Part shown: one piece after another, positions 1 through 57,812 of the stretch
How the letters are laid out: each line of letters opens with the position of its first letter
Numbering within the stretch: position 1 is the first letter of the stretch
Assembly (NCBI GenBank): GCA_016186765.1
Contig: JACPLD010000001.1
Coordinates: 133,647-197,646 of the forward strand
DNA from: Candidatus Kaiserbacteria bacterium
GTDB lineage: Bacteria > Patescibacteriota > Minisyncoccia > Phycocordibacterales > UBA2100
Direction of reading: 5' to 3'
Length of the DNA: 64,000 nt
Position numbers and translations under genes: made by a program
The notes under the pieces: generated by a model
Told to the model about the DNA's origin: nothing
What the model saw: the letters and a program-made list of their open reading frames with translations, nothing else
The model's database searches: none

Positions 1-281
1 TCCTCGAGAGTCCATGCGACGACCCTGCCAAGGCGCTCCGTCAGGAGTTCGATATCGAAACGGGTCTCGTACACTTCGTCTTCTTTCCTCGTAAGCAGAT
101 CGATAAGCAAGGTCCCAACGCCGCCGTCTTGGAGAACTTTTGCGACAAAGGTATTGCGCGGCGAGAAGCGGCTCGAGCCGCTCCCATGCGCGAACACGAC
201 GATACCCCTCGCACCTTTCGGTAGGACAAGCGTGCCGGGAAGCTCGATGCCGTCAACCGCTATGTTTATTTCCCGCTTCAT
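1..281 (-). CDS. alpha/beta hydrolase (dienelactone-hydrolase-like), truncated by window edge
   Basis: Minus-strand translation from ATG at 281: MKREINIAVDGIELPGTLVLPKGARGIVVFAHGSGSSRFSPRN... (HGSGSSR motif). Overlaps the 3' end of the next gene by 29 nt. Absent from ORF track because it runs off the window. Confidence 0.5.
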   Translation of the reverse strand, partial: MKREINIAVDGIELPGTLVLPKGARGIVVFAHGSGSSRFSPRNTFVAKVLQDGGVGTLLIDLLTRKEDEVYETRFDIELLTERLGRVVAWTLE

Positions 282-9226: not shown

Positions 9227-9227
9227 G

Positions 9228-9253
9228 CCCTAGTGGCTATACCCTAGTGGCTA
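9228..9253. repeat. CTAG-rich direct-repeat element (ccctagtggctata x2) between the atpG stop and the rdgB start
   Basis: ccctagtggctataccctagtggcta. The same module recurs at 12275..12299 and, inverted, at 22051..22113. Confidence 0.7.
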
Positions 9254-9257
9254 ACGA

Positions 9258-10172
9258 CTATTTCATCGCCTCAATGCCAGAAGTGATCTCGGAAACTTCG
9301 CGAGTAATCGCGGCCTGGCGGGCTTTGTTGAAGGTGCGCGTGAGCTCCCCGGCCATTTCTTTCGCCTTGTCGGTCGCGTTCTTCATCGCGACCATGCGCG
9401 CGCTATGTTCGGATGCTTTTGATTCGAGCATCTTGTGGAATATGGCGATGTTAACCAGGCGCGGCACGAGAGCCGCCAAGACCTCGTCGGCATCCGGCTC
9501 GATCGTGTATACCGCTACCCCATTGCCATTTTCAACCTCGGCATACTTGCCACGCACCGGGAGGATCTCCTCGACCATGTGCTCCACAGCTCTTCGCGAG
9601 AGCGGCAGCACTTTGTGCACGGCTGGATGCTGTTCGAAAATTGATCGGAAATTTGTATAGGCGACGCGTACTTCGCGGACGCCTCCTGCTCGATACAGAG
9701 AAATCGCTTGGTCCGTGATTACGCGGAATTCGCGCTCGTCAATGGCATCAGCAATGTTCGTGTGAAAATGCACCACGTTGTATCCGCTACGGAGCGCAAA
9801 TTCGTATCCACGCTTCCCGAGACAAAGAAAAATGAGATCATCGCGTGAAAGATTCTCTTCTTTGATGAACTTCTCGGTTTCTCGGATGACGGCACTGTTG
9901 AGGGCGCCAGCAAGTCCTTTATCACTCGTGATGATGATGATCACTACCTTGCCCTCCGCAGGCACGTGCATTAAGGAGTGCCGTGCGACGTTCGTGCTGC
10001 CGGAGATACCGGCGAGCACCCGCAGTCCTGCACGGGCATATGGCCTGGAGGAAATGGCACGCTCTTGGCTCTTGCGCATCTTCACGGCGGATACCGCCTC
10101 CATGGCATGCGTGACCGTACCAGTCTTTTTGTATGACTGGATCTTCAGCTTAATGTTCTTTAAACTCGCCAT
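9258..10172 (-). CDS. atpG: F0F1 ATP synthase subunit gamma
   Basis: 304 aa MASLKNIKLKIQSYKKTGTVTHAMEAVSAVKMRKSQERA..., typical gamma N-terminus; conserved operon position. Confidence 0.9.
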   Translation of the reverse strand: MASLKNIKLKIQSYKKTGTVTHAMEAVSAVKMRKSQERAISSRPYARAGLRVLAGISGSTNVARHSLMHVPAEGKVVIIIITSDKGLAGALNSAVIRETEKFIKEENLSRDDLIFLCLGKRGYEFALRSGYNVVHFHTNIADAIDEREFRVITDQAISLYRAGGVREVRVAYTNFRSIFEQHPAVHKVLPLSRRAVEHMVEEILPVRGKYAEVENGNGVAVYTIEPDADEVLAALVPRLVNIAIFHKMLESKASEHSARMVAMKNATDKAKEMAGELTRTFNKARQAAITREVSEITSGIEAMK

Positions 10173-12212: not shown

Positions 12213-12303
12213 AAGTGATTAGCCAATAGGGTTTAGGGTATAGGGTTTTTGAATTTGGTTTTTTGATTTCATATCTAGTGGCTATACCCTAGTGGCTAGA
12301 CCC
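12213..12303. repeat. composite CTAG-rich repeat module upstream of atpH (tagggtttagggtataggg + ctagtggctataccctagtggctag)
   Basis: Shares the ctagtggctataccctagtggcta unit with 9228..9253 and the tagggtatagggtttaggg unit with 22051..22113. The 3' copy overlaps the last codons of atpF. Confidence 0.7.
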
Positions 12304-12738
12304 TCGTAATATTCTCTCTGCCGCGAGCATTGCCGCACGAGCTATTTCCCGCTCACTCTCCTTCAGGGCCTGGCGCTTAGCTTCTTCGGCACGCAGCGCC
12401 GCGTCTTTGAGCGTGCTTGAAGCTCGCGATTCGGCTTCTCTCACAATCTCTTCGGCCTTCTCTTCAGCACGGCTTCGCGCAGCCGCGACGATTCCTTCAG
12501 CCTCTCGAGACGCGCTGCCGATAATCCCCTCCCCTTTCGTTTTTGCTTCAGCAAGTCGCCCTGCCGCAGCTTCTGCGTTCTGCACGCCCTCGGCAATTTT
12601 CTTCCTGCGATCGTCGATCATCTTCAAAACAGGTTCATAGAGAAAGTACCATAGGACTGCAAGCAGAATGCCGAAGTTGAACGCCTGCACCAAGAGCAGT
12701 TTCCAGTTGATGCCAAACGCTGCGAACAACTCGCTCAT
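12289..12738 (-). CDS. atpF: F0F1 ATP synthase subunit b
   Basis: 149 aa; N-terminal TM helix (LLLVQAFNFGILLAVLWYFLY) followed by a long charged coiled-coil rich in A/E/R. Confidence 0.75.
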   Translation of the reverse strand: MSELFAAFGINWKLLLVQAFNFGILLAVLWYFLYEPVLKMIDDRRKKIAEGVQNAEAAAGRLAEAKTKGEGIIGSASREAEGIVAAARSRAEEKAEEIVREAESRASSTLKDAALRAEEAKRQALKESEREIARAAMLAAERILRGSSH

Positions 12739-22036: not shown

Positions 22037-22050
22037 GGCGAAGTGGACGA

Positions 22051-22113
22051 GCCACTAGCCACTAGGGTATAGGGTTTAGGGAATTTCACTAGTGGCTATC
22101 CCCTATTAGCTAG
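22051..22113. repeat. composite CTAG-rich repeat module upstream of murF (inverted and direct copies of the ctagtggcta / tagggtataggg units)
   Basis: gccactagccactagggtatagggtttagggaatttcactagtggctatcccctattagctag, between the ftsI stop (22117) and the murF start (22036). Confidence 0.7.
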
Positions 22114-22116
22114 TTC

Positions 22117-23829
22117 CTATCTATCGGGCGGGATATCGTAGTAGTTAATCAAAAACTTCGTAATGTCGAGAAACGGCCGCGCGAGCGTTGCCGAGGCGAA
22201 TTGAGCGCCGTGCGGTTCGACCGCTACAAGAAAGACAATAAACTGTGGATCATGCGCGGGGAAATAACCGAAGAACGAGTGCAGGTAGCGATCTTTGTAG
22301 TAGCCTCCTCCGCCTGGAATTGCTATCTGGGCCGTCCCGGTCTTTGCGGCGATCGAGTAGTGCTCTTGCTTGAGGACCCCTCCCAGAAGCGCAGTATCAA
22401 ATACCTTCACCAGCATGTCGGTCACCGTCTGAACCGTCTCCTCCTTCAGTACACGTGGCCCTTGCGGCGGGAGGATGCTTCGAACAATGCCGCTCTCGAG
22501 CTTAATATCGGAGACGACATGCGGTGATGGCAGCACTCCATCATTTGCCAAGGCACTAAGCGCGCGGATCATCTCGACGCCGGTCACTGCGATCCCCTGT
22601 CCGAAGGAAGCCGAAGCAAAGTCGACGTCGTAGGCTCGATCGAGACTTTTCACTAGCCCCGTCGCCTCATTAGGAAGATCGATGCCGGTTTTTTCACCGA
22701 GGCCGAAGGCATGAACGTATTCGCGAAACACATTATGACCGACCCGCCCCTCGATGAACGAGGCACCAAGGTTCAACGATTGATTCAACACCTCTTGCAT
22801 GTCGACGACCCCGCGCGCTTTGCCGTCATAGTTGCATATCTCCTTCCCGCTCTTTTGAATGCAGCCGCGGTCCTCATAGGTCGTCTTCGGCCTTATCGCA
22901 CCTACATCCAAGCCAGCGGCAATGGTGAGAGGCTTCATGATTGAGCCCATCTCGTAGACATTTTCGACCAACGGGTTCCCGAACATGGAGACCTCGGTGG
23001 TGTTGTAGGTGTTAGGATCGAAGCCCGGCCGCGCCGCGATCGCGATGATCTCACCGGTGTGAGGGTCCATGATGATCCCGCCCCCGATCTTCGGCGTATA
23101 GGTGCTCATCACCGCCTCGAGTGTCTTCTCGAGACGCGCCTGCACCTGTGGCTCGATGGAGGTAATGACATTCCCATAGCTCTCGGCGGGGTCGGAAAGC
23201 GCCGTTCCGACATTGATGAAGATCTCCGCGAATGGATTGACGTACAAACCCGAGGCTGCCTTCGCAAGAGTTTTTTCGTAGCTTCGCTCAAGCCCGTACC
23301 TGCCGACCTTCTCGTCGCCCCGATACCCAACGAAGCCGATCGCATGCGCCGCAAGCACACCTCCCGGATAGTTGCGCCACTTATCTTGAACGAGGATCAC
23401 GCCCAGAAGCTTGAGCGAGCGGATACGCTGTGCAGTATCGTCCGGAAGTCGAAAGGCTACCTCTTCATACGGGTCATCATACTTGCTGGCACTCGCAAAA
23501 AAGCGCTCGCGATCAGGTACGGCGAACGAGAGCGTCTGGTAGGCAGCTTCGGGATCTTCAAGCTCCTTCGGCACGATAGCGAGGCGCCATCCACTCTGCA
23601 TCAGCGCCGCTGCAACGAGATCGCCATCGCGCTTCGTAAAGAATATGGAGCCGCGGTCCTCGACGTCGCGTACGTCGGCGACGTACTGGCCGCGAGCGTC
23701 TAGCTCATATCGATCGCCGTGCACGATTTGCACGAAATACAGCCGCGCCGCAAGGAATGCCGCGGCGAGGATGAAGAGGGCGGAAAGGACTCTCGCTCGC
23801 TCGACAAAGCCGAGACTCTTAAATTTCAT
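22117..23829 (-). CDS. ftsI: penicillin-binding protein (FtsI-type transpeptidase)
   Basis: ORF track 22117..23985; start taken at MKFKSLGF (membrane anchor) so that it overlaps the ftsL stop by 11 nt. SxxK (GSIMKP) and KTG (AAKTGTAQ) motifs. Confidence 0.85.
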   Translation of the reverse strand: MKFKSLGFVERARVLSALFILAAAFLAARLYFVQIVHGDRYELDARGQYVADVRDVEDRGSIFFTKRDGDLVAAALMQSGWRLAIVPKELEDPEAAYQTLSFAVPDRERFFASASKYDDPYEEVAFRLPDDTAQRIRSLKLLGVILVQDKWRNYPGGVLAAHAIGFVGYRGDEKVGRYGLERSYEKTLAKAASGLYVNPFAEIFINVGTALSDPAESYGNVITSIEPQVQARLEKTLEAVMSTYTPKIGGGIIMDPHTGEIIAIAARPGFDPNTYNTTEVSMFGNPLVENVYEMGSIMKPLTIAAGLDVGAIRPKTTYEDRGCIQKSGKEICNYDGKARGVVDMQEVLNQSLNLGASFIEGRVGHNVFREYVHAFGLGEKTGIDLPNEATGLVKSLDRAYDVDFASASFGQGIAVTGVEMIRALSALANDGVLPSPHVVSDIKLESGIVRSILPPQGPRVLKEETVQTVTDMLVKVFDTALLGGVLKQEHYSIAAKTGTAQIAIPGGGGYYKDRYLHSFFGYFPAHDPQFIVFLVAVEPHGAQFASATLARPFLDITKFLINYYDIPPDR

Positions 23830-25923: not shown

Positions 25924-27582
25924 ATGCTCCGGGTTTTTAGAACAGCAGATACGGAGACTCTCAATGAAATAGCTGAAGAGACGCGCGTGCGGAAAGTCCC
26001 CACGTACGTGATGCTTTTTTCTATGGGTTCGCAGTTCGACCATCTCATCGTGCGAGAGCTCGCAAAGCTCGGGGCATTTTGCGTTGTCGCTGATCCTTCG
26101 ACCGTTACCGCCGACGACGTGAAAAAGGTGGCGCCAGCGGGAATCATCCTCTCGGGAGGTCCTGCATCGGTAGAAACAGAGCCTCCGCCGTTTGATGAGA
26201 AAATCTTCGATCTCGGGATCCCGACACTCGGCATTTGCCTCGGATTTCAAATGTGGGCGAAGCATGTGGGTGCAAAGGTCCCGCCTTCTGAAAAACGCGA
26301 GTTTGGCGTCCACACGTTCACGATTAGCGCGGATGATCCGCTTTTTGCAGGCATTCCTCGCGAGACACAGGTACTCCATAGTCATGGCGATGCCGTGCTT
26401 CCAGATTCTGTCATTACAGTTCTCGGCACTACCGACAATGCACCCGTTGCGGCCGGGAGATTCAAGCATCTATGGGGGGTGCAGTTCCACCCCGAGGTGA
26501 CCGAAACAGTCGAGGGAGCACACATCTATGATAATTTCCTCACGATCTGCGGCATTAGCGAGCGCTTCCCTGCGCACAATGTGGCGGAGCAAAAGATAGC
26601 TGAACTGAAAAAACTCGTCGGCCCCTCGACTCCGCTCGGGGTAAACAAAAAAGTGCTCATCGCGCTGTCGGGCGGTTCGGATTCTTCGGTCGTTGCATTT
26701 CTTCTAAAGCGCGCTTTAGAAGAAATGCCCCGAGCAAAGTCGAGGGGCCAACCCTTCGACTCCGCTCAGGGTAAACTCCGAGGAGTTTACATCCGCGGCA
26801 TCGATCGTCCCGACGACGAGGCATACGTGAGAACATATTTCGGCAAGGAAGATTGGATTGAGCTCGAGATTGCTGATGCAACGGCGCTTTTTCTCGATGC
26901 ATTGCGTGGAAAGACTGCAATGCGCGAGAAACGGCTGGCAATGCAGAGCGTGTATCGCGACGTGCTCGAAGAGAAGATAAAAGAGTTTGGAGCGGATTTC
27001 ATCGCACAAGGCACACTCTATACCGACCTCCGAGAAAGCGGCCTTGGGACAGCCACCGGTGCGCGTGTCGCCGAGATAAAGGTGCACCACAATGTCGGCA
27101 TCACCTTCTCTGTTCCCGAACTTCGCCCTCTCGAGGATCAGGTGAAAGACTCGGCGAGAAATATCGGACGCGAGATCGGCGTGCCCGAAGACCTTGTCCT
27201 CCGACATCCCTTCCCCGGTCCTGGCCTCGTCGTTCGCATCGAAGGAGAGGTCACCGCCGAAAAACTTGCCGCCGCGCGCGCGGTGGATGGCATCTACATC
27301 GAAGAACTTCGCAAGGCCAACCTCTACTCGACCGTGTGGCAAGCAGGCGCTGTCGTCACGAGTTCAGAGCATACTGTTTCCAAGGGAGACGACGCCGGCA
27401 TGGGACACGTTGTCGCGCTGTGGGCAGTATGGAGCGTGAATGGCTTTACCGCACGCTTTGCGCAGCTACCGTACGATTTTCTGGGCAAAGTCTCCCGCCG
27501 CATCACCAATGAAATCCGCGAGGTCGGCGCTGTCACCTATCGCATCTCCAACAAACCTCCTGCTACGATAGAATGGGGTTAA
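25924..27582 (+). CDS. guaA: GMP synthase (glutamine-hydrolysing), carrying in-frame repeat-element insertions
   Basis: 552 aa; GATase domain (GICLGFQMW), PP-loop SGGSDSS, C-terminal dimerisation domain ending PATIEWG. Start may be the internal MLFSMGSQ. Extra segments PSTPLGVNK and EEMPRAKSRGQPFDSAQGKL are encoded by GC-rich repeat copies. Confidence 0.9.
   Translation: MLRVFRTADTETLNEIAEETRVRKVPTYVMLFSMGSQFDHLIVRELAKLGAFCVVADPSTVTADDVKKVAPAGIILSGGPASVETEPPPFDEKIFDLGIPTLGICLGFQMWAKHVGAKVPPSEKREFGVHTFTISADDPLFAGIPRETQVLHSHGDAVLPDSVITVLGTTDNAPVAAGRFKHLWGVQFHPEVTETVEGAHIYDNFLTICGISERFPAHNVAEQKIAELKKLVGPSTPLGVNKKVLIALSGGSDSSVVAFLLKRALEEMPRAKSRGQPFDSAQGKLRGVYIRGIDRPDDEAYVRTYFGKEDWIELEIADATALFLDALRGKTAMREKRLAMQSVYRDVLEEKIKEFGADFIAQGTLYTDLRESGLGTATGARVAEIKVHHNVGITFSVPELRPLEDQVKDSARNIGREIGVPEDLVLRHPFPGPGLVVRIEGEVTAEKLAAARAVDGIYIEELRKANLYSTVWQAGAVVTSSEHTVSKGDDAGMGHVVALWAVWSVNGFTARFAQLPYDFLGKVSRRITNEIREVGAVTYRISNKPPATIEWG
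26622..26790. repeat. cluster of three copies (+, -, +) of a ~25-bp GC-rich repeat element plus an 8-bp-stem palindrome, all in-frame inside guaA
   Basis: cccctcgactccgctcggggtaaac (26622..26646); ccccgagcaaagtcgagggg (26728..26747, reverse complement with 2 mismatches); cccttcgactccgctcagggtaaac (26752..26776); gtaaactccgaggagtttac palindrome (26771..26790). Confidence 0.8.
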
Positions 27583-30676: not shown

Positions 30677-30748
30677 CCCCGCGGCAGGAATCGAACCCAC
30701 ATTACGAGCTCCGGAAGCTCGCGTCCTATCCGTTGAACGACGCGGGGC
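30677..30748 (-). tRNA. tRNA-Arg (anticodon CCG)
   Basis: Reverse complement CCCCGCGTCGTTCAACGGATAGGACGCGAGCTTCCGGAGCTCGTAATGTGGGTTCGATTCCTGCCGCGGGGA folds as a cloverleaf with anticodon loop UUCCGGA; CCA not encoded. Confidence 0.85.
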
Positions 30749-30770
30749 GAGACAACAGCGTATCATCGTG

Positions 30771-31727
30771 TCAGTCCGTCTCAAAAAGAGCGCTCAAGGA
30801 TTCTCCGTCCTCGATGCGGTGTATCGCCTCGCCGAATACCTCACCGACCGAGACGATCTCCACCTTGGACGAGAATGATCTATCCGTTGATATCGTATCC
30901 GTGATAAAAAGTTTCTTGATGGACGAGCCATCGAGTGTGGCTTTCGCTTCCCCGCTCAGGAGTCCGTGGGTCGTGCAGGCGTAGACTTCGCGGGCACCGT
31001 TTTCCGTGAGAAGCTTCGCGGCGGTTGCAAGCGTGCCGCAGGTGTCAGCCATGTCGTCCACGATGAGCGCGATCTTATCCTTCACGTCTCCGATGAGCTT
31101 CATGCGGGTCACTTTGTTCGGAAGCTCCCGTTCTTTGTGAATGATGGCAAGCTCAGCTTCTTTCATGAGACGTTTGGCGTACGACTGGGCGCGCACGACG
31201 CCGCCGACATCGGGAGACACCACAACGAACTTACCTTCTGCGAGAGCTTTCTTGAAGAACTCCCGCAGGTGCGGAATAAACACGCGCCGCGCGAGCAGAT
31301 TGTCGACGATCGCCGTCCGGAAGTAGCCGCCGATGGCGTCGTTGTGCAGATCCATCGTGAGAAAACGATTCGCGCCCAACGTCTCCACTATCGCCGCAAA
31401 AACGCGCGCGGAGATTGGCTCGCGAGGGCGAGACTTTCTGTCCTGTCGCGCGTAGCCGAAGTATGGAACGACCGCTGTTATTTCGCTTGCAGAGGCTCCG
31501 CGAGCTGCATCTATCGCAAGAAAAAGTCGCACCCAATTTTCCGCCGGAGGCGGAGTAGACTGTATGAGAAAAACATGTTTTCCCCGAAGATTCTCGAGGA
31601 ATTGCACATATTGTTCGCCATCGGAAAAGGTTTTGCATTTCACCTCCCCGAGCGGCATCCCGAGCTTCGCCGCAATTTTCTCCGCGAGTCCGTCGTTGCT
31701 GCCAAGACTGAAAACGCGAAAGTCCAT
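30771..31727 (-). CDS. prs: ribose-phosphate pyrophosphokinase
   Basis: 318 aa; PRPP-binding loop ALIVDDMADTCGT; strong Prs conservation throughout. Confidence 0.95.
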   Translation of the reverse strand: MDFRVFSLGSNDGLAEKIAAKLGMPLGEVKCKTFSDGEQYVQFLENLRGKHVFLIQSTPPPAENWVRLFLAIDAARGASASEITAVVPYFGYARQDRKSRPREPISARVFAAIVETLGANRFLTMDLHNDAIGGYFRTAIVDNLLARRVFIPHLREFFKKALAEGKFVVVSPDVGGVVRAQSYAKRLMKEAELAIIHKERELPNKVTRMKLIGDVKDKIALIVDDMADTCGTLATAAKLLTENGAREVYACTTHGLLSGEAKATLDGSSIKKLFITDTISTDRSFSSKVEIVSVGEVFGEAIHRIEDGESLSALFETD

Positions 31728-31753
31728 ATGGATTCGCAGTATAGCAGATTTTG

Positions 31754-31794
31754 TGGACCCAGCGAGAATCGAACTCGCGCCTCTGCAATGTTCA
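31754..31794 (-). pseudogene. 3' half of an interrupted tRNA (acceptor/T-arm portion) - outer split tRNA, 3' segment
   Basis: Reverse complement TGAACATTGCAGAGGCGCGAGTTCGATTCTCGCTGGGTCCA is a paralog of the 3' half of the nested tRNA-Ala. Its acceptor strand TGGGTCC pairs with the GGGCCCA of the 5' half at 31905..31939. Confidence 0.55.
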
Positions 31795-31808
31795 CCCCGT
31801 TAGATAAT
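31795..31808. repeat. left arm of a perfect 14-bp inverted repeat flanking the nested tRNA-Ala
   Basis: ccccgttagataat; reverse complement of attatctaacgggg at 31891..31904. Confidence 0.85.
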
Positions 31809-31814
31809 TTTCTG

Positions 31815-31885
31815 TGGACCTAGCGGGAATCGAACCCGCGCCTCTGCAATGCGAATGCAGCGTTTTGCCACTGAACTATAGGCCC
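31815..31885 (-). tRNA. tRNA-Ala (anticodon CGC), intact, nested inside the interrupted tRNA
   Basis: Reverse complement GGGCCTATAGTTCAGTGGCAAAACGCTGCATTCGCATTGCAGAGGCGCGGGTTCGATTCCCGCTAGGTCCA: G3-U70, anticodon stem CTGCA/TGCAG, loop UUCGCAU, T arm GCGGG-TTCGATT-CCCGC; 71 nt with a short D arm. Confidence 0.8.
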
Positions 31886-31890
31886 GCTGC

Positions 31891-31904
31891 ATTATCTAAC
31901 GGGG
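31891..31904. repeat. right arm of the perfect 14-bp inverted repeat flanking the nested tRNA-Ala
   Basis: attatctaacgggg. Confidence 0.85.
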
Positions 31905-31939
31905 CGTAGTGCAGCGTTTTACCACTGAACTATGGGCCC
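31905..31939 (-). pseudogene. 5' half of the interrupted tRNA (acceptor, D arm, 5' anticodon stem and first 5 loop nt) - outer split tRNA, 5' segment
   Basis: Reverse complement GGGCCCATAGTTCAGTGGTAAAACGCTGCACTACG, near-identical to the 5' half of the nested tRNA-Ala, with G3-U70 retained. Confidence 0.55.
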
Positions 31940-31974
31940 GTTTCTCTCGGACGCGAGAGAATATAGCACGTCTT

Positions 31975-32045
31975 TCGGGCTGCCGAGAATCGAACTCGGG
32001 CTACAAGCACCCCATGCTCGCGTACTACCACTATACGACAGCCCG
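31975..32045 (-). tRNA. tRNA-Pro (anticodon GGG)
   Basis: Reverse complement CGGGCTGTCGTATAGTGGTAGTACGCGAGCATGGGGTGCTTGTAGCCCGAGTTCGATTCTCGGCAGCCCGA: acceptor CGGGCTG/CAGCCCG, anticodon loop AUGGGGU, T arm CCGAG-TTCGATT-CTCGG. Confidence 0.85.
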
Positions 32046-32047
32046 GA

Positions 32048-32118
32048 TCGGGCCGCCGGGAATCGAACCCGGTCTACACGCACCCGAAGCGTGCGTACTA
32101 CCGGTATACTACGGCCCG
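32048..32118 (-). tRNA. tRNA-Pro (anticodon CGG)
   Basis: Reverse complement CGGGCCGTAGTATACCGGTAGTACGCACGCTTCGGGTGCGTGTAGACCGGGTTCGATTCCCGGCGGCCCGA: anticodon stem CACGC/GCGTG, loop UUCGGGU. Only 2 nt separate it from the previous tRNA. Confidence 0.85.
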
Positions 32119-41826: not shown

Positions 41827-42843
41827 TCAGCGCTTGGCAATTATTGCCTTCTTATATGCGTCGAGGTGCTTGAGTGCCTCGCCCGTGCCCATTGCAACGC
41901 AAAACGGCGCGTCTTTGGCAAGCCGCGCACGCACGCCCGTGCGGCGGAAAACGAGCTCGGGAAAGTTGCGGAGAAGGCTCGTGCCACCCGTCATTACGAT
42001 GCCGTTGTCGATGATGTCTGCCGCAAGTTCGGGAGGCGTCTCCTGCAGCACATCCTTCATTGCGTTGATGATGGTGCGCAGCTCTTTGCCGATCGCACGC
42101 ACGACCTCATTGGTGCCGATCTCGATCGAGCGCGGCAGTCCTGTGAGGTGATCACGCCCCTTCGCCATCATCATCAACTCTTGCTCGATCGGTACGGCGG
42201 AGCCGATGCGTATTTTTACATCCTCCGCCATCTTGTCGCCTATCGAGAGGTTATATGTCTTCTTGGTGTAGTCGGCGATCGCGCGATCCAGAGCATTACC
42301 AGCGCACTTCACCGAGGTTGAAGCGACAATACCACCAAGAGAAATGACGGCAATGTCAGTCGTGCCCCCTCCGATATCAACGATCATGTGCCCACGCGCC
42401 TCGTGAATGGGAATCCCCGCACCGATTGCAGCAAGGATTGGCTCCTTTACGACATATGCTTCACGCGCACCCGCTTTCGTTGCCGCCTCTATGACCGCGC
42501 GACGCTCCGTCGATGTCACGCCGGCAGGGACGGAAACCATGACTTCAGGACGGAAGAGGTTCCACTTCCCCAGCGATTTGCGGATGTAGTAGCGGAGCAT
42601 CGCTTCGGTGACGCGGTAATCTGCTATCACGCCGTCTTTCATCGGCCGGTAGGCGACGATCTCGTCGGGTGTGCGGCCGACCATCTCTTTCGCCTCATTG
42701 CCTACCGCGAGGATTCTGTTGCCCGCAGTGGAGACTGCCACGACTGATGGCTCATTGAGAACGATCCCCTTACCCGGAACGAAGACCAAGACCGTCGTCG
42801 TGCCGAGGTCGATACCGAGTTTTGGAGATAGCGAGAATGCCAT
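41827..42843 (-). CDS. MreB/Mbl-family actin homolog (second paralog, separate from mreBCD)
   Basis: ORF track 41827..42984; start taken at MAFSLSPKLGIDLG (ATG at 42843). Motifs GIDLGTTTVLVFV, MIVDIGGGTTD. Confidence 0.85.
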   Translation of the reverse strand: MAFSLSPKLGIDLGTTTVLVFVPGKGIVLNEPSVVAVSTAGNRILAVGNEAKEMVGRTPDEIVAYRPMKDGVIADYRVTEAMLRYYIRKSLGKWNLFRPEVMVSVPAGVTSTERRAVIEAATKAGAREAYVVKEPILAAIGAGIPIHEARGHMIVDIGGGTTDIAVISLGGIVASTSVKCAGNALDRAIADYTKKTYNLSIGDKMAEDVKIRIGSAVPIEQELMMMAKGRDHLTGLPRSIEIGTNEVVRAIGKELRTIINAMKDVLQETPPELAADIIDNGIVMTGGTSLLRNFPELVFRRTGVRARLAKDAPFCVAMGTGEALKHLDAYKKAIIAKR

Positions 42844-42874
42844 AGAGAAAAGCATTGTATCCGTAAGAGGAGAT

Positions 42875-43060
42875 TTGACAAACTTCACACAACTTTTATA
42901 AAGGATGAAGCGTGGTCTGGAGCTCCTCTTCCAGACCAAGCCGCGGCGGGGAGCTGCTTCCCCCCAGTGGCTTACCCGCCGCACTTTACGTCCGCCGAAT
43001 CCTCACGAGGTTCAACCGGACGAAGGAGCCGTTGTCATACCCCAGCGGCTCCTTTTCTTT
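42875..43060 (+). ncRNA. candidate small RNA transcription unit (sigma70-like promoter ... GC-rich hairpins ... intrinsic terminator)
   Basis: TTGACA (42875..42880), 16-nt spacer, TATAAA (42897..42902). Hairpins ggtctgga/tccagacc and gggga/tcccc. Terminator ggagccg-13 nt loop-cggctcc + ttttctttct (43025..43060). No plus-strand ORF. Confidence 0.3.
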
Positions 43061-43061
43061 C

Positions 43062-43346
43062 TCAACGAGACTTGTTCTCGAGATCGGAGTGGTTTTCCGG
43101 CTTGATCAACCACCAGAATTTCTTTGAAAAATTCTGTGCGTCGTCGCAGACACGCTTGAGGTAGTAGAGATCCTTCGTCGGGACCTTTTCCAAGATCTTG
43201 CCCATTCGTGCCATCGTTATCGGCGGTAAGCCGTCGCGCACGCGGCTCTTGTTCAGCCGCTCGCAAAAGTACTTCATGAGCTCTCCCCGCTCCGTCGCGC
43301 GGCTCTTCGCGGCAGTGCGCTTCAAGTGAGTACCGATGTGCCGCAT
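43062..43346 (-). CDS. small hypothetical protein (possible start at internal MKYFCERL, 71 aa)
   Basis: 94-aa ORF with coding-like third-position bias (MKYFCERLNKSRVRDGLPPITMARMGKILEKVPTKDLYYLKRVCDDAQNFSKKFWWLIKPE...). The overlapping 43012..43518 ORF looks like noise. Confidence 0.4.
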   Translation of the reverse strand: MRHIGTHLKRTAAKSRATERGELMKYFCERLNKSRVRDGLPPITMARMGKILEKVPTKDLYYLKRVCDDAQNFSKKFWWLIKPENHSDLENKSR

Positions 43347-43380
43347 AGCAGTATTCTACACTTTTGGCTATAGTTCCCGA

Positions 43381-43953
43381 ATGCGAACAATTTTGCCTGC
43401 GAGCAAGAACTCCGCGCTGCGCAAGAAAGCGCAAGAGATACCGCCCTCGGAAATAACGGGCAAGCGCACGCAAAGGCTCATCAAAGAGATGAAAACATTG
43501 CTTGCAAAAGAAGAGCACGGCGTCGCGCTTGCCGCCCCGCAGGTCGGTGAGTCGCTACGGCTTTTCATCATCTCCGGTCGAGCGCTCCTTCGACAAGCTC
43601 AGGATAAATTGCCCGCGCATCCGAGTCGTGAATATTTGCAAAGTGAACAGTCTACCGACCTGTCCCGAGCGCAGTCGAGGGACCAGGTCTACATCAATCC
43701 CGAGCTGATCAAGATGTCGCGCGGGAGACGTGAAAAGCACGAGGGCTGTCTCTCTGTTCGCGGCAAGTGGGGCATGGTGCCGCGGGCCGAAAAGGCAACC
43801 ATTCGTGCCTACAACGAGCGAGGCTCACGCTTCACGCGCGGCGCATCCGGTTTTCTCGCGCACATCTTCCAGCACGAGATGGACCATCTCGAAGGCATCC
43901 TCTATACCGATAAAGCGATGCACCTCTATGACGAATCCGAAAAAGGAAAGTGA
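43381..43953 (+). CDS. def: peptide deformylase, carrying an in-frame repeat-element insertion
   Basis: ORF track 43336..43953; start taken at MRTILPA. PDF motifs GVALAAPQVG, EGCLSVRG, QHEMDHLEG. ~36 extra residues (GRALLRQAQDKLPAHPSREYLQSEQSTDLSRAQSRD) lie between motif 1 and the VYINPE segment. Confidence 0.85.
   Translation: MRTILPASKNSALRKKAQEIPPSEITGKRTQRLIKEMKTLLAKEEHGVALAAPQVGESLRLFIISGRALLRQAQDKLPAHPSREYLQSEQSTDLSRAQSRDQVYINPELIKMSRGRREKHEGCLSVRGKWGMVPRAEKATIRAYNERGSRFTRGASGFLAHIFQHEMDHLEGILYTDKAMHLYDESEKGK
43575..43690. repeat. pair of inverted copies of the GC-rich repeat element inside def (in-frame)
   Basis: ccttcgacaagctcaggataaa (43587..43608, + orientation) and tcccgagcgcagtcgaggga (43663..43682, - orientation), related to the guaA copies cccttcgactccgctcagggtaaac and ccccgagcaaagtcgagggg. 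Confidence 0.7.
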
Positions 43954-44809
43954 GATTCGATTTGCGTTTTTTGGGACCTCGCGGATCGCGGTTGGTATCC
44001 TGGACGAACTCGAGCGCGAGAATTTCATTCCCGCGCTCATCGTCGCGGCACCCGATGCGCGAAAGGGGCGCGGGATGAATCTCACTTCCCCACCGACCAA
44101 AGAATGGGCGAGCGCTCACGACGTTCCAACGCTCCAGCCCGATAAACTTGATTCAGACTTTCTTCGGAACATGAGAGTGTCGGTGTGGGACGTGTTCGTC
44201 GTCGTCGATTACGGTAGAATTCTTCCCAAGCTACTCCTCGATGTGCCGCGCCGCGGCTGCCTGAACGTCCACTTCTCACTTCTGCCGCGCTACCGCGGTG
44301 CCTCTCCGATCCGCTCCGCTATCCTGAACAATGATAAAAATATTGGAACTTCGATCATCCTCCTCGTGGAGAAACTCGACGAGGGACCGATCATCGCGCA
44401 AAAGGCGCTAGAGCTTCCGTCATGGCCAATGAAAGCCTCCGCGCTCGAAGATATATGTTTACGTGAGAGCGGACAGCTCCTCGCGCGCATTCTTCCGGCG
44501 TGGGTCGCGGGAGAAATCGATGCACGAGAGCAAAACCACGACCTCGCAACGTACTGCGAAAAGATAAAAAAAGAAGACGGATTGCTTGATCTTTCGAGAG
44601 ACCCATATCACAACCTCCTCAAGGTATACGCGTACGAAGGATGGCCCAGCACATACTCATTTTTCGAGCGAAGCCGAAAGAAAATCCGTGTTCAGATTCT
44701 CGACGCCCACATCGAGGATGGAACGTTCATCGTCGACCGCGTCAAACCCGAAGGAAAACGCGACATGAGCTACCAAGAATTCTCGCGCTCCGGCGCAAAA
44801 CCGATCTAA
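43928..44809 (+). CDS. fmt: methionyl-tRNA formyltransferase
   Basis: ORF track 43730..44809; start taken at MTNPKKESEIRFAFFGTS, overlapping the def end by 26 nt. Formyltransferase motifs (LNVHFSLLPRYRGASPI). Confidence 0.85.
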   Translation: MTNPKKESEIRFAFFGTSRIAVGILDELERENFIPALIVAAPDARKGRGMNLTSPPTKEWASAHDVPTLQPDKLDSDFLRNMRVSVWDVFVVVDYGRILPKLLLDVPRRGCLNVHFSLLPRYRGASPIRSAILNNDKNIGTSIILLVEKLDEGPIIAQKALELPSWPMKASALEDICLRESGQLLARILPAWVAGEIDAREQNHDLATYCEKIKKEDGLLDLSRDPYHNLLKVYAYEGWPSTYSFFERSRKKIRVQILDAHIEDGTFIVDRVKPEGKRDMSYQEFSRSGAKPI

Positions 44810-56067: not shown

Positions 56068-56508
56068 TCAATACCAGTAGCAGCTGTATCCCCCATAGCA
56101 GTAGTCGTAGGAATCGTACCAGTAGTCATCGTACCAGTAGTCATCGTACCAGTAGTCATAGTTATATGTCGGGTAGTAGTAGTACGTATCGTAGGGATAG
56201 TACCAGTAGTCGTAATAGTACGCTGGATACGTATACGTCGGATATGAATAGGAGTATGACGGATATGAATACGAGTACGATGGATAGGAGTACGAGTAGG
56301 ACGTCGGGTACGTGTACTGCGGCGCGCTCACATTCACATATGGCGAGGTGTTGATGTAGGTGTATGGAGCGAAGGTATGACTCGAGTAATTCAAACTCGG
56401 CATTTGATACGGATACGAGGAGTAGTACTGGGCGAGCACCGGCGTTGGCGAAGCAATCGCGAGCACTCCAAGCAAGACACCATATGCGAGCGTCTGCTTC
56501 ATATCCAT
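56068..56508 (-). CDS. secreted tyrosine-rich low-complexity protein (paralog-like of 1189..1833)
   Basis: 146 aa; signal peptide MDMKQTLAYGVLLGVLAIASPTPVLA then YSYSYPSYSYSYPSYSYSYP...DYWYDDYWYDDYWYD. Confidence 0.55.
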   Translation of the reverse strand: MDMKQTLAYGVLLGVLAIASPTPVLAQYYSSYPYQMPSLNYSSHTFAPYTYINTSPYVNVSAPQYTYPTSYSYSYPSYSYSYPSYSYSYPTYTYPAYYYDYWYYPYDTYYYYPTYNYDYWYDDYWYDDYWYDSYDYCYGGYSCYWY

Positions 56509-56582
56509 AACACTATCATCGCCACATGATTAGCAAAGGAAGAATGAGGGAACGCACCGTTTGCTATACTTCTGTCAATTCC

Positions 56583-57812
56583 ATGAGAAAAACAACGGCT
56601 CTAACACTTGGCCTTCTCCTCCTCTTGAGTTTTTTGTTTTTCATGTCGCCGGTAGGGCGATACGTTGTCGGTACACCGTTTTCAGGCAACCCTGAACCCC
56701 CTCCACCGCCGCGCAGCGAGCAACTCTCCTTCGAGCTCGCAGAGGGATTTGCGGCACATCTTTTCGCAGAGAATGTCCCCGGGGCGCGCGTGATGCACCG
56801 TGATCCGAAAGGAACACTTCTTGTCTCCGAAACATCTCAAGGCAAGATCGTTGCGCTTCCAAACCTTGACAGCGATGGTAAGGCTGATCGCCTGATCACG
56901 GTGCTCGACGGCCTCAATAACCCGCATGGATTGCTAATGCTTTGCCCGGACACTGGAAACGTCAGCGCCGATCAGGATGTATGTCTACTTTATGTAGCGG
57001 AAACTCATCGAGTCGCAGCGTACGCTTATGATGCGGATACGTACTCGGCAACGTTCGAAAAAACGCTCATTAATCTTCCTGACGACGGTGGCCACTTCAC
57101 GCGTACCCTGATGCTTCATCCCGACAACAAGCGGATACTCGTATCCGTCGGCTCATCGTGCAATGTGTGCATGGAAAACGACGAGCGGCGCGCCACCGTC
57201 CTTGCGATCGATCTCGAAATAAAGAAGATGAGCGTTTTTGCGACAGGACTCCGCAACACAGTCTTTATGACCACCCACTACGTCACGGGAGACATTTGGG
57301 GTACCGACATGGGCCGCGATTACTTGGGAGACGACCTACCGCCGGATGAAATAAACATTATCCGCCCCTCGACTTCGCTCGGGGTAAACAACTATGGGTG
57401 GCCGTTCTGCTATGGGAAAGGCATCCGCGATTCGACGTTCCGCTCCGACAAGGAATTCGACTGCACGACGACGGACACATCGCACCTCGACATCCCCGCG
57501 CACTCCGCTCCTCTCGGTATTGCGTTCGTTCCCGAAGAAGGATGGCCGGAAGAGATGTGGTACGACGCCTTGGTCGCCTACCATGGTTCCTGGAACCGAA
57601 GCACTCCGACGGGCTATCGTGTAGTGCGCTTCCCGCTCGACGCGGAGGGCAATCCCGAAGGAGGACCGCAAGATTTTATGACCGGATTTATGAATGAACG
57701 CGGCACCGTCATCGGTCGCCCTGTTGATATTCTTCTCGAGCCAGGTGGTGTCATGTTCGTCTCCGACGACAAAGCTGGTGTAATCTACCGTATCGCAAGA
57801 ACGGGTGCGTAA
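56583..57812 (+). CDS. PQQ-dependent sugar (glucose/sorbosone) dehydrogenase-family beta-propeller protein, carrying an in-frame repeat-element copy
   Basis: ORF track 56526..57812; start taken at MRKTTALTLG (signal peptide). Typical motifs NPHGL, GLRNTVFM, DIWGTDMG, NNYGWPF, MFVSDDKAGVIYRI. Segment RPSTSLGV is encoded by the repeat element. Confidence 0.7.
   Translation: MRKTTALTLGLLLLLSFLFFMSPVGRYVVGTPFSGNPEPPPPPRSEQLSFELAEGFAAHLFAENVPGARVMHRDPKGTLLVSETSQGKIVALPNLDSDGKADRLITVLDGLNNPHGLLMLCPDTGNVSADQDVCLLYVAETHRVAAYAYDADTYSATFEKTLINLPDDGGHFTRTLMLHPDNKRILVSVGSSCNVCMENDERRATVLAIDLEIKKMSVFATGLRNTVFMTTHYVTGDIWGTDMGRDYLGDDLPPDEINIIRPSTSLGVNNYGWPFCYGKGIRDSTFRSDKEFDCTTTDTSHLDIPAHSAPLGIAFVPEEGWPEEMWYDALVAYHGSWNRSTPTGYRVVRFPLDAEGNPEGGPQDFMTGFMNERGTVIGRPVDILLEPGGVMFVSDDKAGVIYRIARTGA
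57365..57389. repeat. copy of the GC-rich repeat element, in-frame inside the dehydrogenase gene
   Basis: cccctcgacttcgctcggggtaaac, 24/25 identical to the guaA copy at 26622..26646 and read in the same frame (PST(S/P)LGVN). Confidence 0.8.

What the first reader, a model, noticed from the sequence alone, without database searches (positions are those of the whole stretch)
43575..43690. def (peptide deformylase) carries a ~36-residue in-frame insertion built from an inverted pair of the same repeat family
Between the conserved GVALAAPQVG and VYINPE...EGCLSVRG segments, this Def has GRALLRQAQDKLPAHPSREYLQSEQSTDLSRAQSRD. The DNA for this region contains ccttcgacaagctcagg and, about 55 bp later, its reverse-complement-like partner cccgagcgcagtcgaggg. 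These are the same + / - arrangement seen in guaA. An inverted pair could form a long RNA hairpin inside the def-fmt mRNA.
Basis: partly seen in the sequence, partly recalled or inferred. Interest (0 to 1): 0.6.

Follow-up and report, generated by a model that had tools for sequence, protein, structure and literature searches.

The report
Palindromic repeat pair inside deformylase loop
Two inverted copies of a short GC-rich repeat, also found in other genes of this ultra-small (Kaiserbacteria) bacterium, sit in frame in the naturally long surface loop of its peptide deformylase; this resembles the "selfish DNA inside essential genes" known mainly from Rickettsia.

Summary
The sequence features are real. 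def (43381-43953) is an intact deformylase. It carries a sense unit (43586-43611) and an antisense unit (43656-43682) of a dispersed 24-27-nt repeat with core CCYTCGAC-N2-5-GCTCRGG. A profile built only from copies in other genomes finds six units in the window and nothing else: three in guaA, two in def, one in a GSDH-like gene.

The "36-residue insertion" is overstated. This Def is type-1A-like, and relatives without any repeat already have a loop of median 25 residues at this site. The repeat version has 31. About 13% of 163 related Defs carry the arms, and they are scattered among relatives rather than forming one clade. The loop is a hotspot: relatives show nested units and at least three other short repeat families there. 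Fmt has two similar hotspots in beta-turns.

The 102-nt doublet folds as a hairpin (-32 kcal/mol, z -2.4; relatives down to -5). In the arms, 4/6-fold synonymous sites vary far less than elsewhere in the gene (0.19 vs 0.58, p=2e-4), so something constrains the nucleic acid. No compensatory changes were seen, and some lineages let an arm decay.

Best reading: an old RPE/REPIN-like repeat passenger in a permissive loop. How it spreads is unknown. I found no description of it in the literature.

The parts
43381..43953 (+). def, peptide deformylase, 190 aa, type-1A-like; motifs GVALAAPQVG, EGCLS and QHEMDH are intact
   Evidence: Pfam PF01327 E=2.7e-39. Best PDB sequence hit is 1zxz, AtPDF1A. Best Foldseek hits are 1zxz, 4je6 and 1szz. 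100% identical to an NCBI 'Candidatus Kaiserbacteria bacterium' protein.
43576..43683 (+). Loop between the strand after motif 1 and the DQVYINP strand (residues 66-101). Residues 66-75 are predicted helical and 76-97 disordered.
   Evidence: AF2 model built on 120 sequences: mean pLDDT 80, H66-75, pLDDT<50 for residues 76-97. Aligned against the PDF1A insertion.
43586..43611 (+). Sense repeat unit (5' arm), TCCTTCGACAAGCTCAGGATAAATTG, read as LRQAQDKL
   Evidence: nhmmer E=1.1e-5 with the family profile and E=0.001 with a profile free of def and window copies. Orthologous arms are listed.
43612..43655 (+). Spacer between the arms (PAHPSREYLQSEQST). It varies among relatives and is probably in part a remnant of the native loop.
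   Evidence: Only 24% of spacer columns are conserved, against 75% in the arms. L001 and P0031 keep the native DEPE..PPV between their arms.
43656..43682 (-). Antisense repeat unit (3' arm). On the + strand it reads CGACCTGTCCCGAGCGCAGTCGAGGGA (DLSRAQSRD). Its reverse complement is TCCCTCGACTGCGCTCGGGACAGGTCG.
   Evidence: One mismatch to the 18-nt family core. nhmmer E=3.2e-5 and 0.0037. In relatives GCGGAG gives a perfect 18/18 core.
43583..43684 (+). Predicted ~100-nt imperfect hairpin formed by the two arms (RNA or ssDNA)
   Evidence: MFE -31.7 kcal/mol, z -2.38 for the 102 nt. The stems are TCCTTCGAC/GTCGAGGGA and GCTC.GGA/TCC.GAGC.
43928..44809 (+). fmt, methionyl-tRNA formyltransferase. 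It overlaps the def 3' end by 26 nt and carries no repeat unit in this window.
   Evidence: Pfam PF00551/PF02911. Hotspots in relatives are shown.
26622..26776 (+). Three units of the same family inside guaA: 26622-26646 (+), 26723-26747 (-), 26752-26776 (+)
57365..57389 (+). One unit of the same family inside a GSDH-like beta-propeller gene (56526-57812), read as RPSTSLGVN
   Evidence: Pfam PF07995.

Best explanation
WHAT IT IS. def encodes an intact, type-1A-like peptide deformylase. Its loop between motif 1 and the DQVYINP strand (the CD-loop / type-1A insertion site) is long across the whole Kaiserbacteria-like clade.

SHOWN. In the window, and in about 13% of related Defs, this loop is rebuilt around two units of a dispersed 24-27-nt GC-rich repeat (CCYTCGAC-N2-5-GCTCRGG plus a GGACAAG/GGGTAAAC-type tail). 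One unit is in sense and one in antisense orientation, 44 nt apart. The same units occur in all three reading frames: as PSTxLGxN, PFDSAQGK or LRQAQDK. Hosts are guaA, a GSDH-like gene, and two beta-turns of Fmt in relatives. Every copy is in frame and lies inside a gene, and those whose position could be placed lie in loops or beta-turns. So this is a DNA-level repeat family, not a protein module.

INFERRED: HOW IT WORKS. Single units are copied into new places by a mechanism not yet identified. Candidates are a hairpin/ssDNA-dependent REP-like process or microhomology-templated copying. No transposase and no target-site duplication were seen. Selection then keeps only stop-free, multiple-of-three copies in permissive loops. 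In a genome with almost no intergenic space, that means inside genes. The units are translated. In Def they provide part of a short helix (LRQAQDK, replacing the native ARDSRNA and keeping the invariant R71) and a disordered hydrophilic stretch, at the one site where deformylases tolerate or use insertions.

SHOWN: A CONSTRAINT ON THE NUCLEIC ACID. The doublet can fold into a ~100-nt hairpin. The stem-forming 4/6-fold synonymous sites of the arms are nearly frozen among orthologues, so the nucleic-acid form of the arms is under constraint. The agent was not identified. It could be an mRNA or ssDNA structure, a binding or mobilising protein, or conversion from other copies.

AGE. The def doublet is old: it is as diverged as the rest of the gene. 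Its patchy distribution is best explained by recombination among lineages.
For: Family membership. The motif occurs 6 times in the window against 0.02 in shuffles, and 21 times in 444 kb of Patescibacteria loci against once in 391 kb of other phyla.

Location: all 6 window units and all 31 units in related loci lie inside ORFs of at least 194 aa, with no stop codon. Three reading frames are used.

Presence/absence: 15 Defs carry both arms, 6 carry one, and 142 carry none. Loop medians are 31 and 25 residues.

Nested extra units inside the 3' arm in L086 and L092, and a further unit in L166. Arms are acquired singly: L138 has one arm, while its sister L117 has two arms flanking the native PPPPVP.

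Other repeat families in the same loop: EVRPH type 16, LEARSSKLEA type 13, mid-loop RQAQGK type 6. Fmt beta-turn hotspots.

Structure: the core is confident, residues 76-97 have pLDDT<50, and the best matches are PDF1A and Leptospira PDF. Type 1A PDFs have a long insertion at the active-site entrance and also occur in bacteria (PMC5591237). The enlarged, mobile CD loop is described in PMC3101196.

Nucleic-acid constraint: synonymous pair diversity at 4/6-fold codons is 0.19 in the arms (n=10) against 0.58 in the rest of the gene (n=59), Mann-Whitney p=2e-4. Two-fold codons do not differ.

Hairpin: class-A z from -0.5 to -5.2, mean -2.7, against -0.67 for repeat-free loops.

Age: loop DNA is 67-77% identical between class-A genes, the same as the flanks.

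Patchiness: the pairing of WIN with L091 (no arms) has 85% bootstrap support on the linked mreB, and class-A monophyly is recovered in 0 of 200 replicates. The mreB/def/fmt identities of WIN to L091 are incongruent, at 96/78.5/53%.
Against: No mobilising enzyme was found: 30 window ORFs scanned, with no transposase or RAYT. No target-site duplication is visible. So mobility is inferred from distribution only.

A pure passenger should decay. Instead the arms are better conserved than the protein average, with 75% against 57% of columns conserved. This fits a function or ongoing homogenisation better than neutrality.

The class-A loop appears to replace the native loop rather than simply add to it, which a plain insertion model does not explain. 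The phylogenies rest on short, saturated sequences and moderate bootstraps (67-85%).

The census covers only 64 kb plus about +/-3 kb around def in relatives. It therefore cannot show whether intergenic copies exist or how many copies a genome holds.
Confidence: 0.6

Rival explanations
1. The doublet is kept because it is a functional hairpin in the def-fmt mRNA, controlling stability, ribosome pausing, co-translational folding or the def:fmt expression ratio. The peptide is a by-product.
For: 4/6-fold synonymous sites at stem positions are frozen (0.19 vs 0.58, p=2e-4), while unpaired centre and tail positions vary. The hairpins are significantly stable in most class-A genes, down to z -5.2. 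An inner third stem, GGACAAGTCG/CGACTTGTCC, is perfect in L163, L165, L162 and L164.
Against: Of 163 related Defs, 142 have neither arm and 6 have only one, so 148 lack the hairpin, including the window's nearest relatives. No compensatory pair changes were seen. The 5' GATAAA/GACAAG haplotypes match the 3' arm in only 5 of 12 genes. L083 and L085 let the 3' arm decay, and L081 breaks a pair without compensation. With natural flanks z is -0.33. No Rfam family matches. The same units occur singly, without a partner, in fmt and the GSDH-like gene.
Confidence: 0.15
2. The arm-encoded peptides are a protein-level adaptation of the type-1A / CD-loop insertion, for example tuning access to the active site or ribosome docking. 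The resemblance to the repeat only reflects the raw material.
For: RQAQDK is invariant and DLSRAESRD nearly so across genes only 65-76% identical. Residues 66-75, including LRQAQD, are predicted helical and take the place of the native ARDSRNA while keeping invariant R71. In type 1A PDFs the insertion shapes the active-site entrance (PMC5591237), and in LiPDF the CD loop is mobile (PMC3101196).
Against: Amino-acid selection cannot explain invariant codon choice: CTC, CTT, CGA, GCT, TCC, TCG and AGG in 10-12 of 12 genes, while the flanking conserved S, G, R and A codons vary freely. Most of the segment is predicted disordered. The same units are read in other frames in other proteins.
Confidence: 0.1
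3. The whole ~100-nt doublet (arms plus spacer) is the mobile unit, a REPIN or MITE in the strict sense. It has inserted repeatedly and site-specifically into def in different lineages, which would explain the patchy distribution.
For: Class A is scattered in the mreB and def trees. The architecture, 27-nt inverted arms plus a 48-nt spacer, is REPIN-like. GATAAA and GACAAG arm haplotypes also occur in fmt units.
Against: Units clearly occur and arrive singly (L138 vs L117; fmt; GSDH). In guaA the pair flanks the native P-loop motif. The spacer is the least conserved part, and in L001 and P0031 it holds native loop residues. A search of 1.84 billion protein representatives with the 35-aa element found no other host protein; the only two hits are unrelated low-complexity repeats. 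Class-A loop DNA is as diverged as the flanks, so the insertions are not recent. Insertion would not remove the native loop.
Confidence: 0.1
4. Chance or compositional resemblance: the loop is an ordinary lineage-specific sequence that only looks like the guaA repeat.
For: The window's sense arm is degenerate: its centre is 1 nt shorter, with 4 differences from the guaA unit. A 17-mer search with 3 mismatches finds nothing else.
Against: Independent-profile E-values are 0.001 and 0.0037. The ancestral-like arms in relatives are 18/18 and 24/24 identical to units in other genes. Nested further units occur at the same place.
Confidence: 0.02

Closest known systems
Rickettsia palindromic elements (RPE; Ogata et al. 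2000 Science, as summarised in the MITE review PMC10969869)
   Same: A dispersed palindromic repeat found inside unrelated housekeeping genes of a reduced genome. Copies are in frame and non-disruptive, located where the protein fold tolerates extra residues, and show presence/absence among orthologues.
   Different: RPEs are units of about 100-150 bp that encode a family-specific conserved peptide. Here the dispersed unit is only 24-27 nt, is read in three frames, and arrives singly; the ~100-nt palindrome arises from two units. The host is a different phylum (Patescibacteria). Sequence relatedness was not tested.
REP sequences and REPIN doublets mobilised by RAYT transposases (Bertels and Rainey 2011; from my own knowledge)
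   Same: A short GC-rich unit. Two units in inverted orientation, separated by a variable spacer, form a hairpin. The arms are better conserved than the spacer. Elements persist at orthologous sites for a long time.
   Different: REPs and REPINs are extragenic by definition; here every copy seen is intragenic and translated. The single unit is only weakly self-complementary (CCY..RGG). No RAYT was found in the part of the genome available.
MITEs
   Same: A small non-autonomous element with terminal inverted repeats, and occasional in-frame fusions with host ORFs (PMC10969869).
   Different: No target-site duplication is seen. The complete doublet is not the dispersed unit. The size is at or below the lower limit for MITEs.
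Type 1A peptide deformylase insertion / enlarged CD loop of Leptospira PDF
   Same: Same position in the fold. The window's Def is closest in sequence and structure to AtPDF1A, human-like mitochondrial PDF and LiPDF. All have an enlarged loop here (PMC5591237, PMC3101196).
   Different: In those enzymes the loop is ordinary protein sequence. Here part of it is coded by two units of a dispersed DNA repeat and is predicted to be mostly disordered.
GC-cluster, double-hairpin and 'byp' elements in fungal mitochondrial genes (from my own knowledge)
   Same: Short GC-rich hairpin elements that invade protein-coding genes of compact genomes.
   Different: byp elements are skipped by the ribosome and need not preserve the frame. 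Here all 37 copies preserve the frame and lack stops, which argues that they are translated.

Membership tests
Rickettsia palindromic elements (RPE) | Multi-copy dispersed repeat within one genome | tested here: met
   Six units in 64 kb in three unrelated genes; the next-best profile hit has E>3.
Rickettsia palindromic elements (RPE) | Inserted in frame in protein-coding genes without disrupting them | tested here: met
   All 6 window units and 31 units in related loci lie inside ORFs of at least 194 aa, with no stops. The Def motifs are intact.
Rickettsia palindromic elements (RPE) | Unit of about 100-150 bp that encodes a conserved family peptide | tested here: not met
   The unit is 24-27 nt and is read as PSTxLGxN, PFDSAQGK, LRQAQDK or, in antisense, SRAESR, depending on frame.
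Rickettsia palindromic elements (RPE) | Sequence relatedness to RPE-1..10 / occurrence in Rickettsia | not tested
The organism is Candidatus Kaiserbacteria.
REP / REPIN-RAYT system | Inverted doublet of units with a short spacer, forming a hairpin | tested here: met
   def: 27-nt arms plus a 44-48-nt spacer, z -2.4 (down to -5.2 in relatives). guaA pair: I9.
REP / REPIN-RAYT system | Each unit is itself an imperfect palindrome | tested here: inconclusive
   Only CCY...RGG (3-4 bp) is self-complementary. Y and R covary 13 C..G: 13 T..A: 2 T..G, but this may reflect two subfamilies rather than independent events.
REP / REPIN-RAYT system | Extragenic location | tested here: not met
   0 of 37 units are intergenic.
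REP / REPIN-RAYT system | Cognate RAYT (Y1 transposase) gene in the genome | tested here: inconclusive
   No transposase-like Pfam hit in 30 window ORFs. The rest of the genome was not available.
MITE | Terminal inverted repeats | tested here: met
   The arms are CTCCTTCGACAAGCTCAGGACAAGTCG and CGACTTGTCCCGAGCGGAGTCGAGGGA in the ancestral-like form.
MITE | Target-site duplication | tested here: not met
   No direct repeat flanks the def doublet or the single fmt units when filled and empty sites are compared.
MITE | The whole element is the dispersed unit | tested here: not met
   Arms occur singly and spacers are unrelated. No other protein among 1.84 billion representatives carries the 35-aa element.
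Type 1A peptide deformylase | Catalytic motifs GxGxAAxQ, EGCLS and HExxH | tested here: met
   GVALAAPQVG, EGCLS and QHEMDH are present and invariant in the clade.
Type 1A peptide deformylase | Closest to PDF1A in sequence and fold | tested here: met
   phmmer best hit is 1zxz at 4.8e-22 over the full length. Foldseek top hits are 1zxz, 4je6 and 1szz, TM 0.73-0.74.
Type 1A peptide deformylase | Long insertion between motif 1 and motif 2 at the active-site entrance | tested here: met
   Loop of 17-46 residues in 163 clade members (median 25 without arms), aligned with the AtPDF1A insertion. Its position relative to the active site was not measured on the model.
Type 1A peptide deformylase | C-terminal domain folded in the orientation opposite to type 1B | not tested
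   Model coordinates could not be inspected.
Programmed translational bypass elements (byp, T4 gene 60 type) | The element interrupts the frame or carries stops and is skipped by the ribosome | tested here: not met
   All copies keep the frame and have no stop. Insert sizes in Fmt are multiples of three.
Known structured RNA families (Rfam 15) | Match to a curated covariance model | tested here: not met
   No hit at E<=1 in 43000-44200.

The most novel reading that the evidence does not exclude
The 24-27-nt units would be members of a very widespread family of replicators or functional motifs that act at the nucleic-acid level. The core CCYTCGAC-N3-GCTCRGGGCAAGC also occurs in 31 viral contigs with GC from 41 to 71%. 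In ultra-compact Patescibacteria genomes these units would live inside essential genes. They would integrate in sense orientation into loops and beta-turns, and recruit a second, antisense unit downstream to form a hairpin around native coding sequence. Selection on the DNA or RNA, not on the peptide, would then maintain them over long periods. That would make them an intragenic, translated counterpart of REPIN-type 'domesticated' repeats, with an unknown mobilising or binding factor.
Probability: 0.25. Interest if true: 0.75.

Novelty: new variant of a known kind. Interest (0 to 1): 0.55.

Why it matters
If the reading holds, Kaiserbacteria-like CPR bacteria have genomes of about 1 Mb with almost no intergenic space, yet still host several families of short palindromic repeats by placing them in frame in permissive loops of essential enzymes (Def, Fmt, GuaA). 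So far this has been documented mainly for Rickettsia RPEs.

It matters in four ways:
- It gives a natural map of insertion-tolerant sites in these proteins.
- It is a source of loop diversity at the entrance of the deformylase active site, which is an antibiotic target.
- It provides markers for recombination among uncultivated lineages.
- It is a warning for annotation and alignment of CPR proteins, because peptides such as LRQAQDK, PSTSLG, STSSGQA, EVRPH and LEARSSKLEA are repeat-derived.

The frozen synonymous sites raise a testable question: what reads these units as nucleic acid?

Tried and rejected
1. The unit centre varies in length, so a gapped regex and a profile were needed.
2. Folding 141 nt with natural flanks gave z -0.33. 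Only the 102-nt element alone is significantly structured.
3. Rfam gave no hit.
4. The first AF2 run, with 31 sequences, was useless (pLDDT 43). The 120-sequence alignment gave pLDDT 80.
5. I looked for covariation between the arms. The GATAAA/GACAAG haplotypes show no significant matching with the 3' arm (5 of 12), and no compensatory changes were found.
6. I looked for a recent recombination tract around the loop. DNA identity is uniformly 60-80%, so sites are too saturated to see breakpoints.
7. Homology between the class-A spacer (RHPKSEYE) and the native loop (RNAPDEPE) is about 50% at the DNA level, by eye, and not significant.
8. A search for the whole 35-aa element in other proteins across 1.84 billion representatives returned only two unrelated low-complexity proteins.
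9. Literature searches by peptide strings, by DNA strings and by REPIN/RAYT plus Patescibacteria found nothing relevant.
10. Translational bypass was rejected because all copies preserve the frame.
11. A DNA-uptake-sequence idea was rejected. The density is only about 0.1 per kb, and the motif is shared across phyla and viruses.
12. A resemblance of CCCC..GGGGTAAAC to type I-E CRISPR repeats comes from memory only. There is no array and the units are intragenic, so I did not pursue it.
13. No transposase or RAYT was found in 30 window ORFs. This says nothing about the rest of the genome.
Full report
OBSERVATION. The ORF at 43381-43953 (+) is a peptide deformylase (Pfam PF01327, E=2.7e-39) with intact motifs GVALAAPQVG, EGCLS and QHEMDH. 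It is 100% identical to a protein that NCBI names 'Candidatus Kaiserbacteria bacterium' peptide deformylase. The two DNA strings are at 43587-43603 and 43664-43681.

Simple searches do not link them to other copies. A 17-mer search with up to 3 mismatches finds only itself, and gapless inverted-repeat search does not report the pair. The reason is that the unit has two conserved boxes separated by a centre of variable length.

A whole-window repeat search found the family CCCCTCGACTYCGCTCGGGGTAAAC at 26618, 26748 and 57361, and an inverted pair in guaA (D6, I9, I16). The def antisense arm matches its 18-nt core with one mismatch; by my arithmetic about 1e-4 such matches are expected. A profile built only from nine copies in other genomes, none of them in def, recovers exactly six units in the window: guaA x3, def x2 (E=0.001 and 0.0037), and one in a GSDH-like gene. 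The next hit has E>3. The gapped motif occurs 6 times in the window against 0.02 in shuffles. It occurs 21 times in 444 kb of related Patescibacteria DNA against once in 391 kb from other phyla.

WHAT THE LOOP IS. By sequence the best solved relative is Arabidopsis mitochondrial PDF1A (1zxz), which aligns end to end and has its own insertion at exactly this place. An AF2 model from 120 homologues (mean pLDDT 80) has a confident deformylase core, a helix at residues 66-75 and an unconfident segment at 76-97. Its best Foldseek matches are AtPDF1A, a human-like mitochondrial PDF and Leptospira PDF. Type 1A PDFs are described as having a long insertion that partly tethers the active-site entrance and as also occurring in bacteria (PMC5591237). 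Leptospira PDF has an enlarged, mobile CD loop (PMC3101196). So a long loop here is a family trait, not something the repeat created.

RELATIVES. I collected 163 distinct Defs of the clade, 60-81% identical outside the loop. Of these, 142 have no arm; their loop is typically ARDSRNAPDEPEKKEEAPPLP, median 25 residues. Fifteen have both arms (LRQAQDK...DLSRAESR, median 31 residues) and six have one arm.

In relatives the arms are closer to the family consensus than in the window. The antisense arm is a perfect 18/18 core (TCC CGA GCG GAG TCG AGG GA). The sense arm, TCCTTCGACAAGCTCAGGACAAG, is identical over 24 nt to a unit inside fmt of L083. The ancestral-like element has 27-nt arms, CTCCTTCGACAAGCTCAGGACAAGTCG and CGACTTGTCCCGAGCGGAGTCGAGGGA, around a 48-nt spacer.

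Further units have been nested into the 3' arm in L086 and L092 and added in L166. Independent arrangements exist. L117/L118, L128, L155 and P0032 carry a sense unit after APDEP. L138 has only that unit followed by the native PPQP, while its sister L117 also has an antisense unit after the native PPPPVP. Arms therefore arrive one at a time and can flank native sequence, as in guaA, where the pair brackets the native SGGSDSSV P-loop.

The loop also holds other short repeat families in relatives: EVRPH type in 16, LEARSSKLEA type in 13, mid-loop RQAQGK type in 6. Fmt has two analogous hotspots in beta-turns. At FFER-xG-KK-IRV, STSSGQA-type units or an unrelated 24-residue element occur. At DAHIxxG-xxVID, PSTSLGAS-type units occur. 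All 31 units seen in related loci and all six in the window are inside long ORFs, without stops. They are read in three different frames, so the family is defined at the DNA level.

AGE AND DISTRIBUTION. Class-A loop DNA is 67-77% identical between genes, no more than the flanks. Two-fold synonymous sites in the arms are as diverged as elsewhere. The element is therefore old.

Even so, arm-bearing Defs are not a clade. On the linked mreB gene the window pairs with L091, which has no arms (96% identity, 85% bootstrap). Monophyly of the arm-bearing genomes is recovered in 0 of 200 replicates. Outside the loop, the window's Def is closest to arm-less L088, at 81%. The mreB, def and fmt identities are mutually incongruent: WIN to L091 gives 96, 78.5 and 53%. 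I read this as an old loop dimorphism shuffled by recombination. Recurrent site-specific insertion cannot be excluded, and the trees are short and only moderately supported.

NUCLEIC-ACID SIGNAL. Restricted to the 102-nt element, the window folds at -31.7 kcal/mol (z -2.4). Twelve class-A genes average z -2.7, with the strongest at -5.2, against -0.67 for repeat-free loops. With natural flanks the signal disappears (z -0.33).

Among 12 class-A genes, codons at stem positions are almost invariant. CTC, CGA and GCT are found in 12 of 12 genes. CTT, TCC, TCG and AGG are found in all, or all but one, of the 10-12 genes that keep that residue. The flanking conserved S, G, R and A codons vary freely. 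Synonymous pair diversity at 4/6-fold codons is 0.19 in the arms against 0.58 in the rest of the gene (p=2e-4), and two-fold codons do not differ. The positions that vary are the unpaired centre and the tail.

This is a constraint on nucleotides, not on amino acids. However, there are no compensatory changes, the GATAAA/GACAAG haplotypes do not track the opposite arm (5 of 12), and L083 and L085 have let the 3' arm decay. What exerts the constraint is unresolved. It could be an RNA or ssDNA hairpin, a binding or mobilising protein, or conversion from other copies.

MECHANISM AND CLASSIFICATION. My best reading (confidence 0.6) is an RPE-like or REPIN-like passenger. A short GC-rich repeat unit is copied around the genome. 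It survives only as stop-free, in-frame copies in permissive loops, because there is hardly any intergenic DNA. In Def it occupies the one site that tolerates extra residues.

It behaves like Rickettsia palindromic elements (PMC10969869) and like REPIN doublets, but it fails defining features of each family:
- RPE: the unit is 24-27 nt, not 100-150 bp, and has no fixed peptide.
- REP/REPIN: it is never extragenic.
- MITE: it has no target-site duplication, and the full doublet is not dispersed.
- No transposase was found in 30 ORFs of the window.

Rfam has no match. Literature searches by peptide, by DNA string, and by REPIN/RAYT plus Patescibacteria found no description. The same core motif occurs in 31 IMG/VR contigs of GC 41-71%, mostly inside long ORFs, so the family reaches far beyond this clade.

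VERDICT. The interpretation needs correcting: this is not a 36-residue insertion but a repeat-rebuilt version of an ancestral type-1A loop. The hairpin is plausible but not shown to be functional. I rate it a new variant of a known kind, interest 0.55. The more novel reading is intragenic, translated, nucleotide-constrained REPIN-like units with sense-first, convergent-pair behaviour; I give it probability 0.25.

Noticed in passing
window 26622-26776 (inside guaA, 25924-27582): Three units of the same repeat (+, -, +). The first +/- pair brackets the native ATP-pyrophosphatase P-loop VLIALSGGSDSSV, and the third unit directly follows the second. They are read as PSTPLGVN, PRAKSRG and PFDSAQGKL.
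   Followed up: partly
window 57365-57389 (inside the GSDH-like gene, 56526-57812): A single sense unit read as RPSTSLGVN, just before the conserved NYGWP of a glucose/sorbosone-dehydrogenase-like beta-propeller.
   Followed up: partly
L083:4270-4293, L132:1817-1840, L119:4282-4305, L082:2828-2853, L088:4339-4363, L105:2790-2813, L092:4310-4336: Fmt of relatives has two beta-turn hotspots carrying the same units (STSSGQA and PSTSLGAS readings). The window's fmt is empty at both. L111, L138 and L145 carry an unrelated 24-residue element, RGLNRAKGAVGRTPNETSSHGVLG, at the first hotspot.
   Followed up: partly
def loops of L127/L132/L119/L091 (EVRPH type), L093/L149/L007 (LEARSSKLEA type), and L094: Other short repeat families occupy the same Def loop. 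These include a perfect 13-bp hairpin GATGAGGTCAGACCTCATC (z -3.3), a tandem CTCGAAG array, and in L094 two strong hairpins (z -5.9).
   Followed up: partly
L167-L197 (IMG/VR contigs): The core CCYTCGAC-N3-GCTCRGGGNAARC occurs in 31 viral contigs of GC 41-71%, against roughly one expected by my estimate. Most copies lie inside ORFs of 200-1100 aa. Some show tandem half-site duplications (L170, L194).
   Followed up: partly
window 41827-44809 compared with L091, L088, L082: The linked genes give incongruent relatedness: WIN to L091 is 96% for mreB, 78.5% for def outside the loop and 53% for fmt. This suggests frequent recombination or gene exchange in this region among Kaiserbacteria lineages.
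   Followed up: partly
window 9225-9259, 12275-12307, 22047-22118: A separate repeat, CTAGTGGCTATACCCTAGTGGCTA, in direct and inverted copies. All copies appear to lie in short intergenic gaps, next to ATP-synthase genes and a murein-related gene. It may be a promoter, terminator or regulatory motif.
   Followed up: no
window 1228-1314 and 56086-56244: Tandem 15-21-nt coding repeats (GTAGTCATCGTACCAGTA...) that give Tyr/Pro-rich low-complexity stretches in small secreted or membrane proteins on the minus strand.
   Followed up: no
window 30680-32110: A cluster of tRNA-like sequences appeared as repeat families D3, D14 and D20. I did not run the tRNA finder on it.
   Followed up: no
window 43928-43953: fmt starts at ATG 43928 and overlaps the last 26 nt of def. 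The same 26-nt overlap is called in relatives (L162, L163, L164), which implies translational coupling.
   Followed up: partly
window 43062-43346 (-): A 94-aa ORF between mreB and def has no Pfam hit. A gene of 90-97 aa is called at the same position in relatives (L161, L164, L166), so it is a conserved unknown small protein.
   Followed up: no
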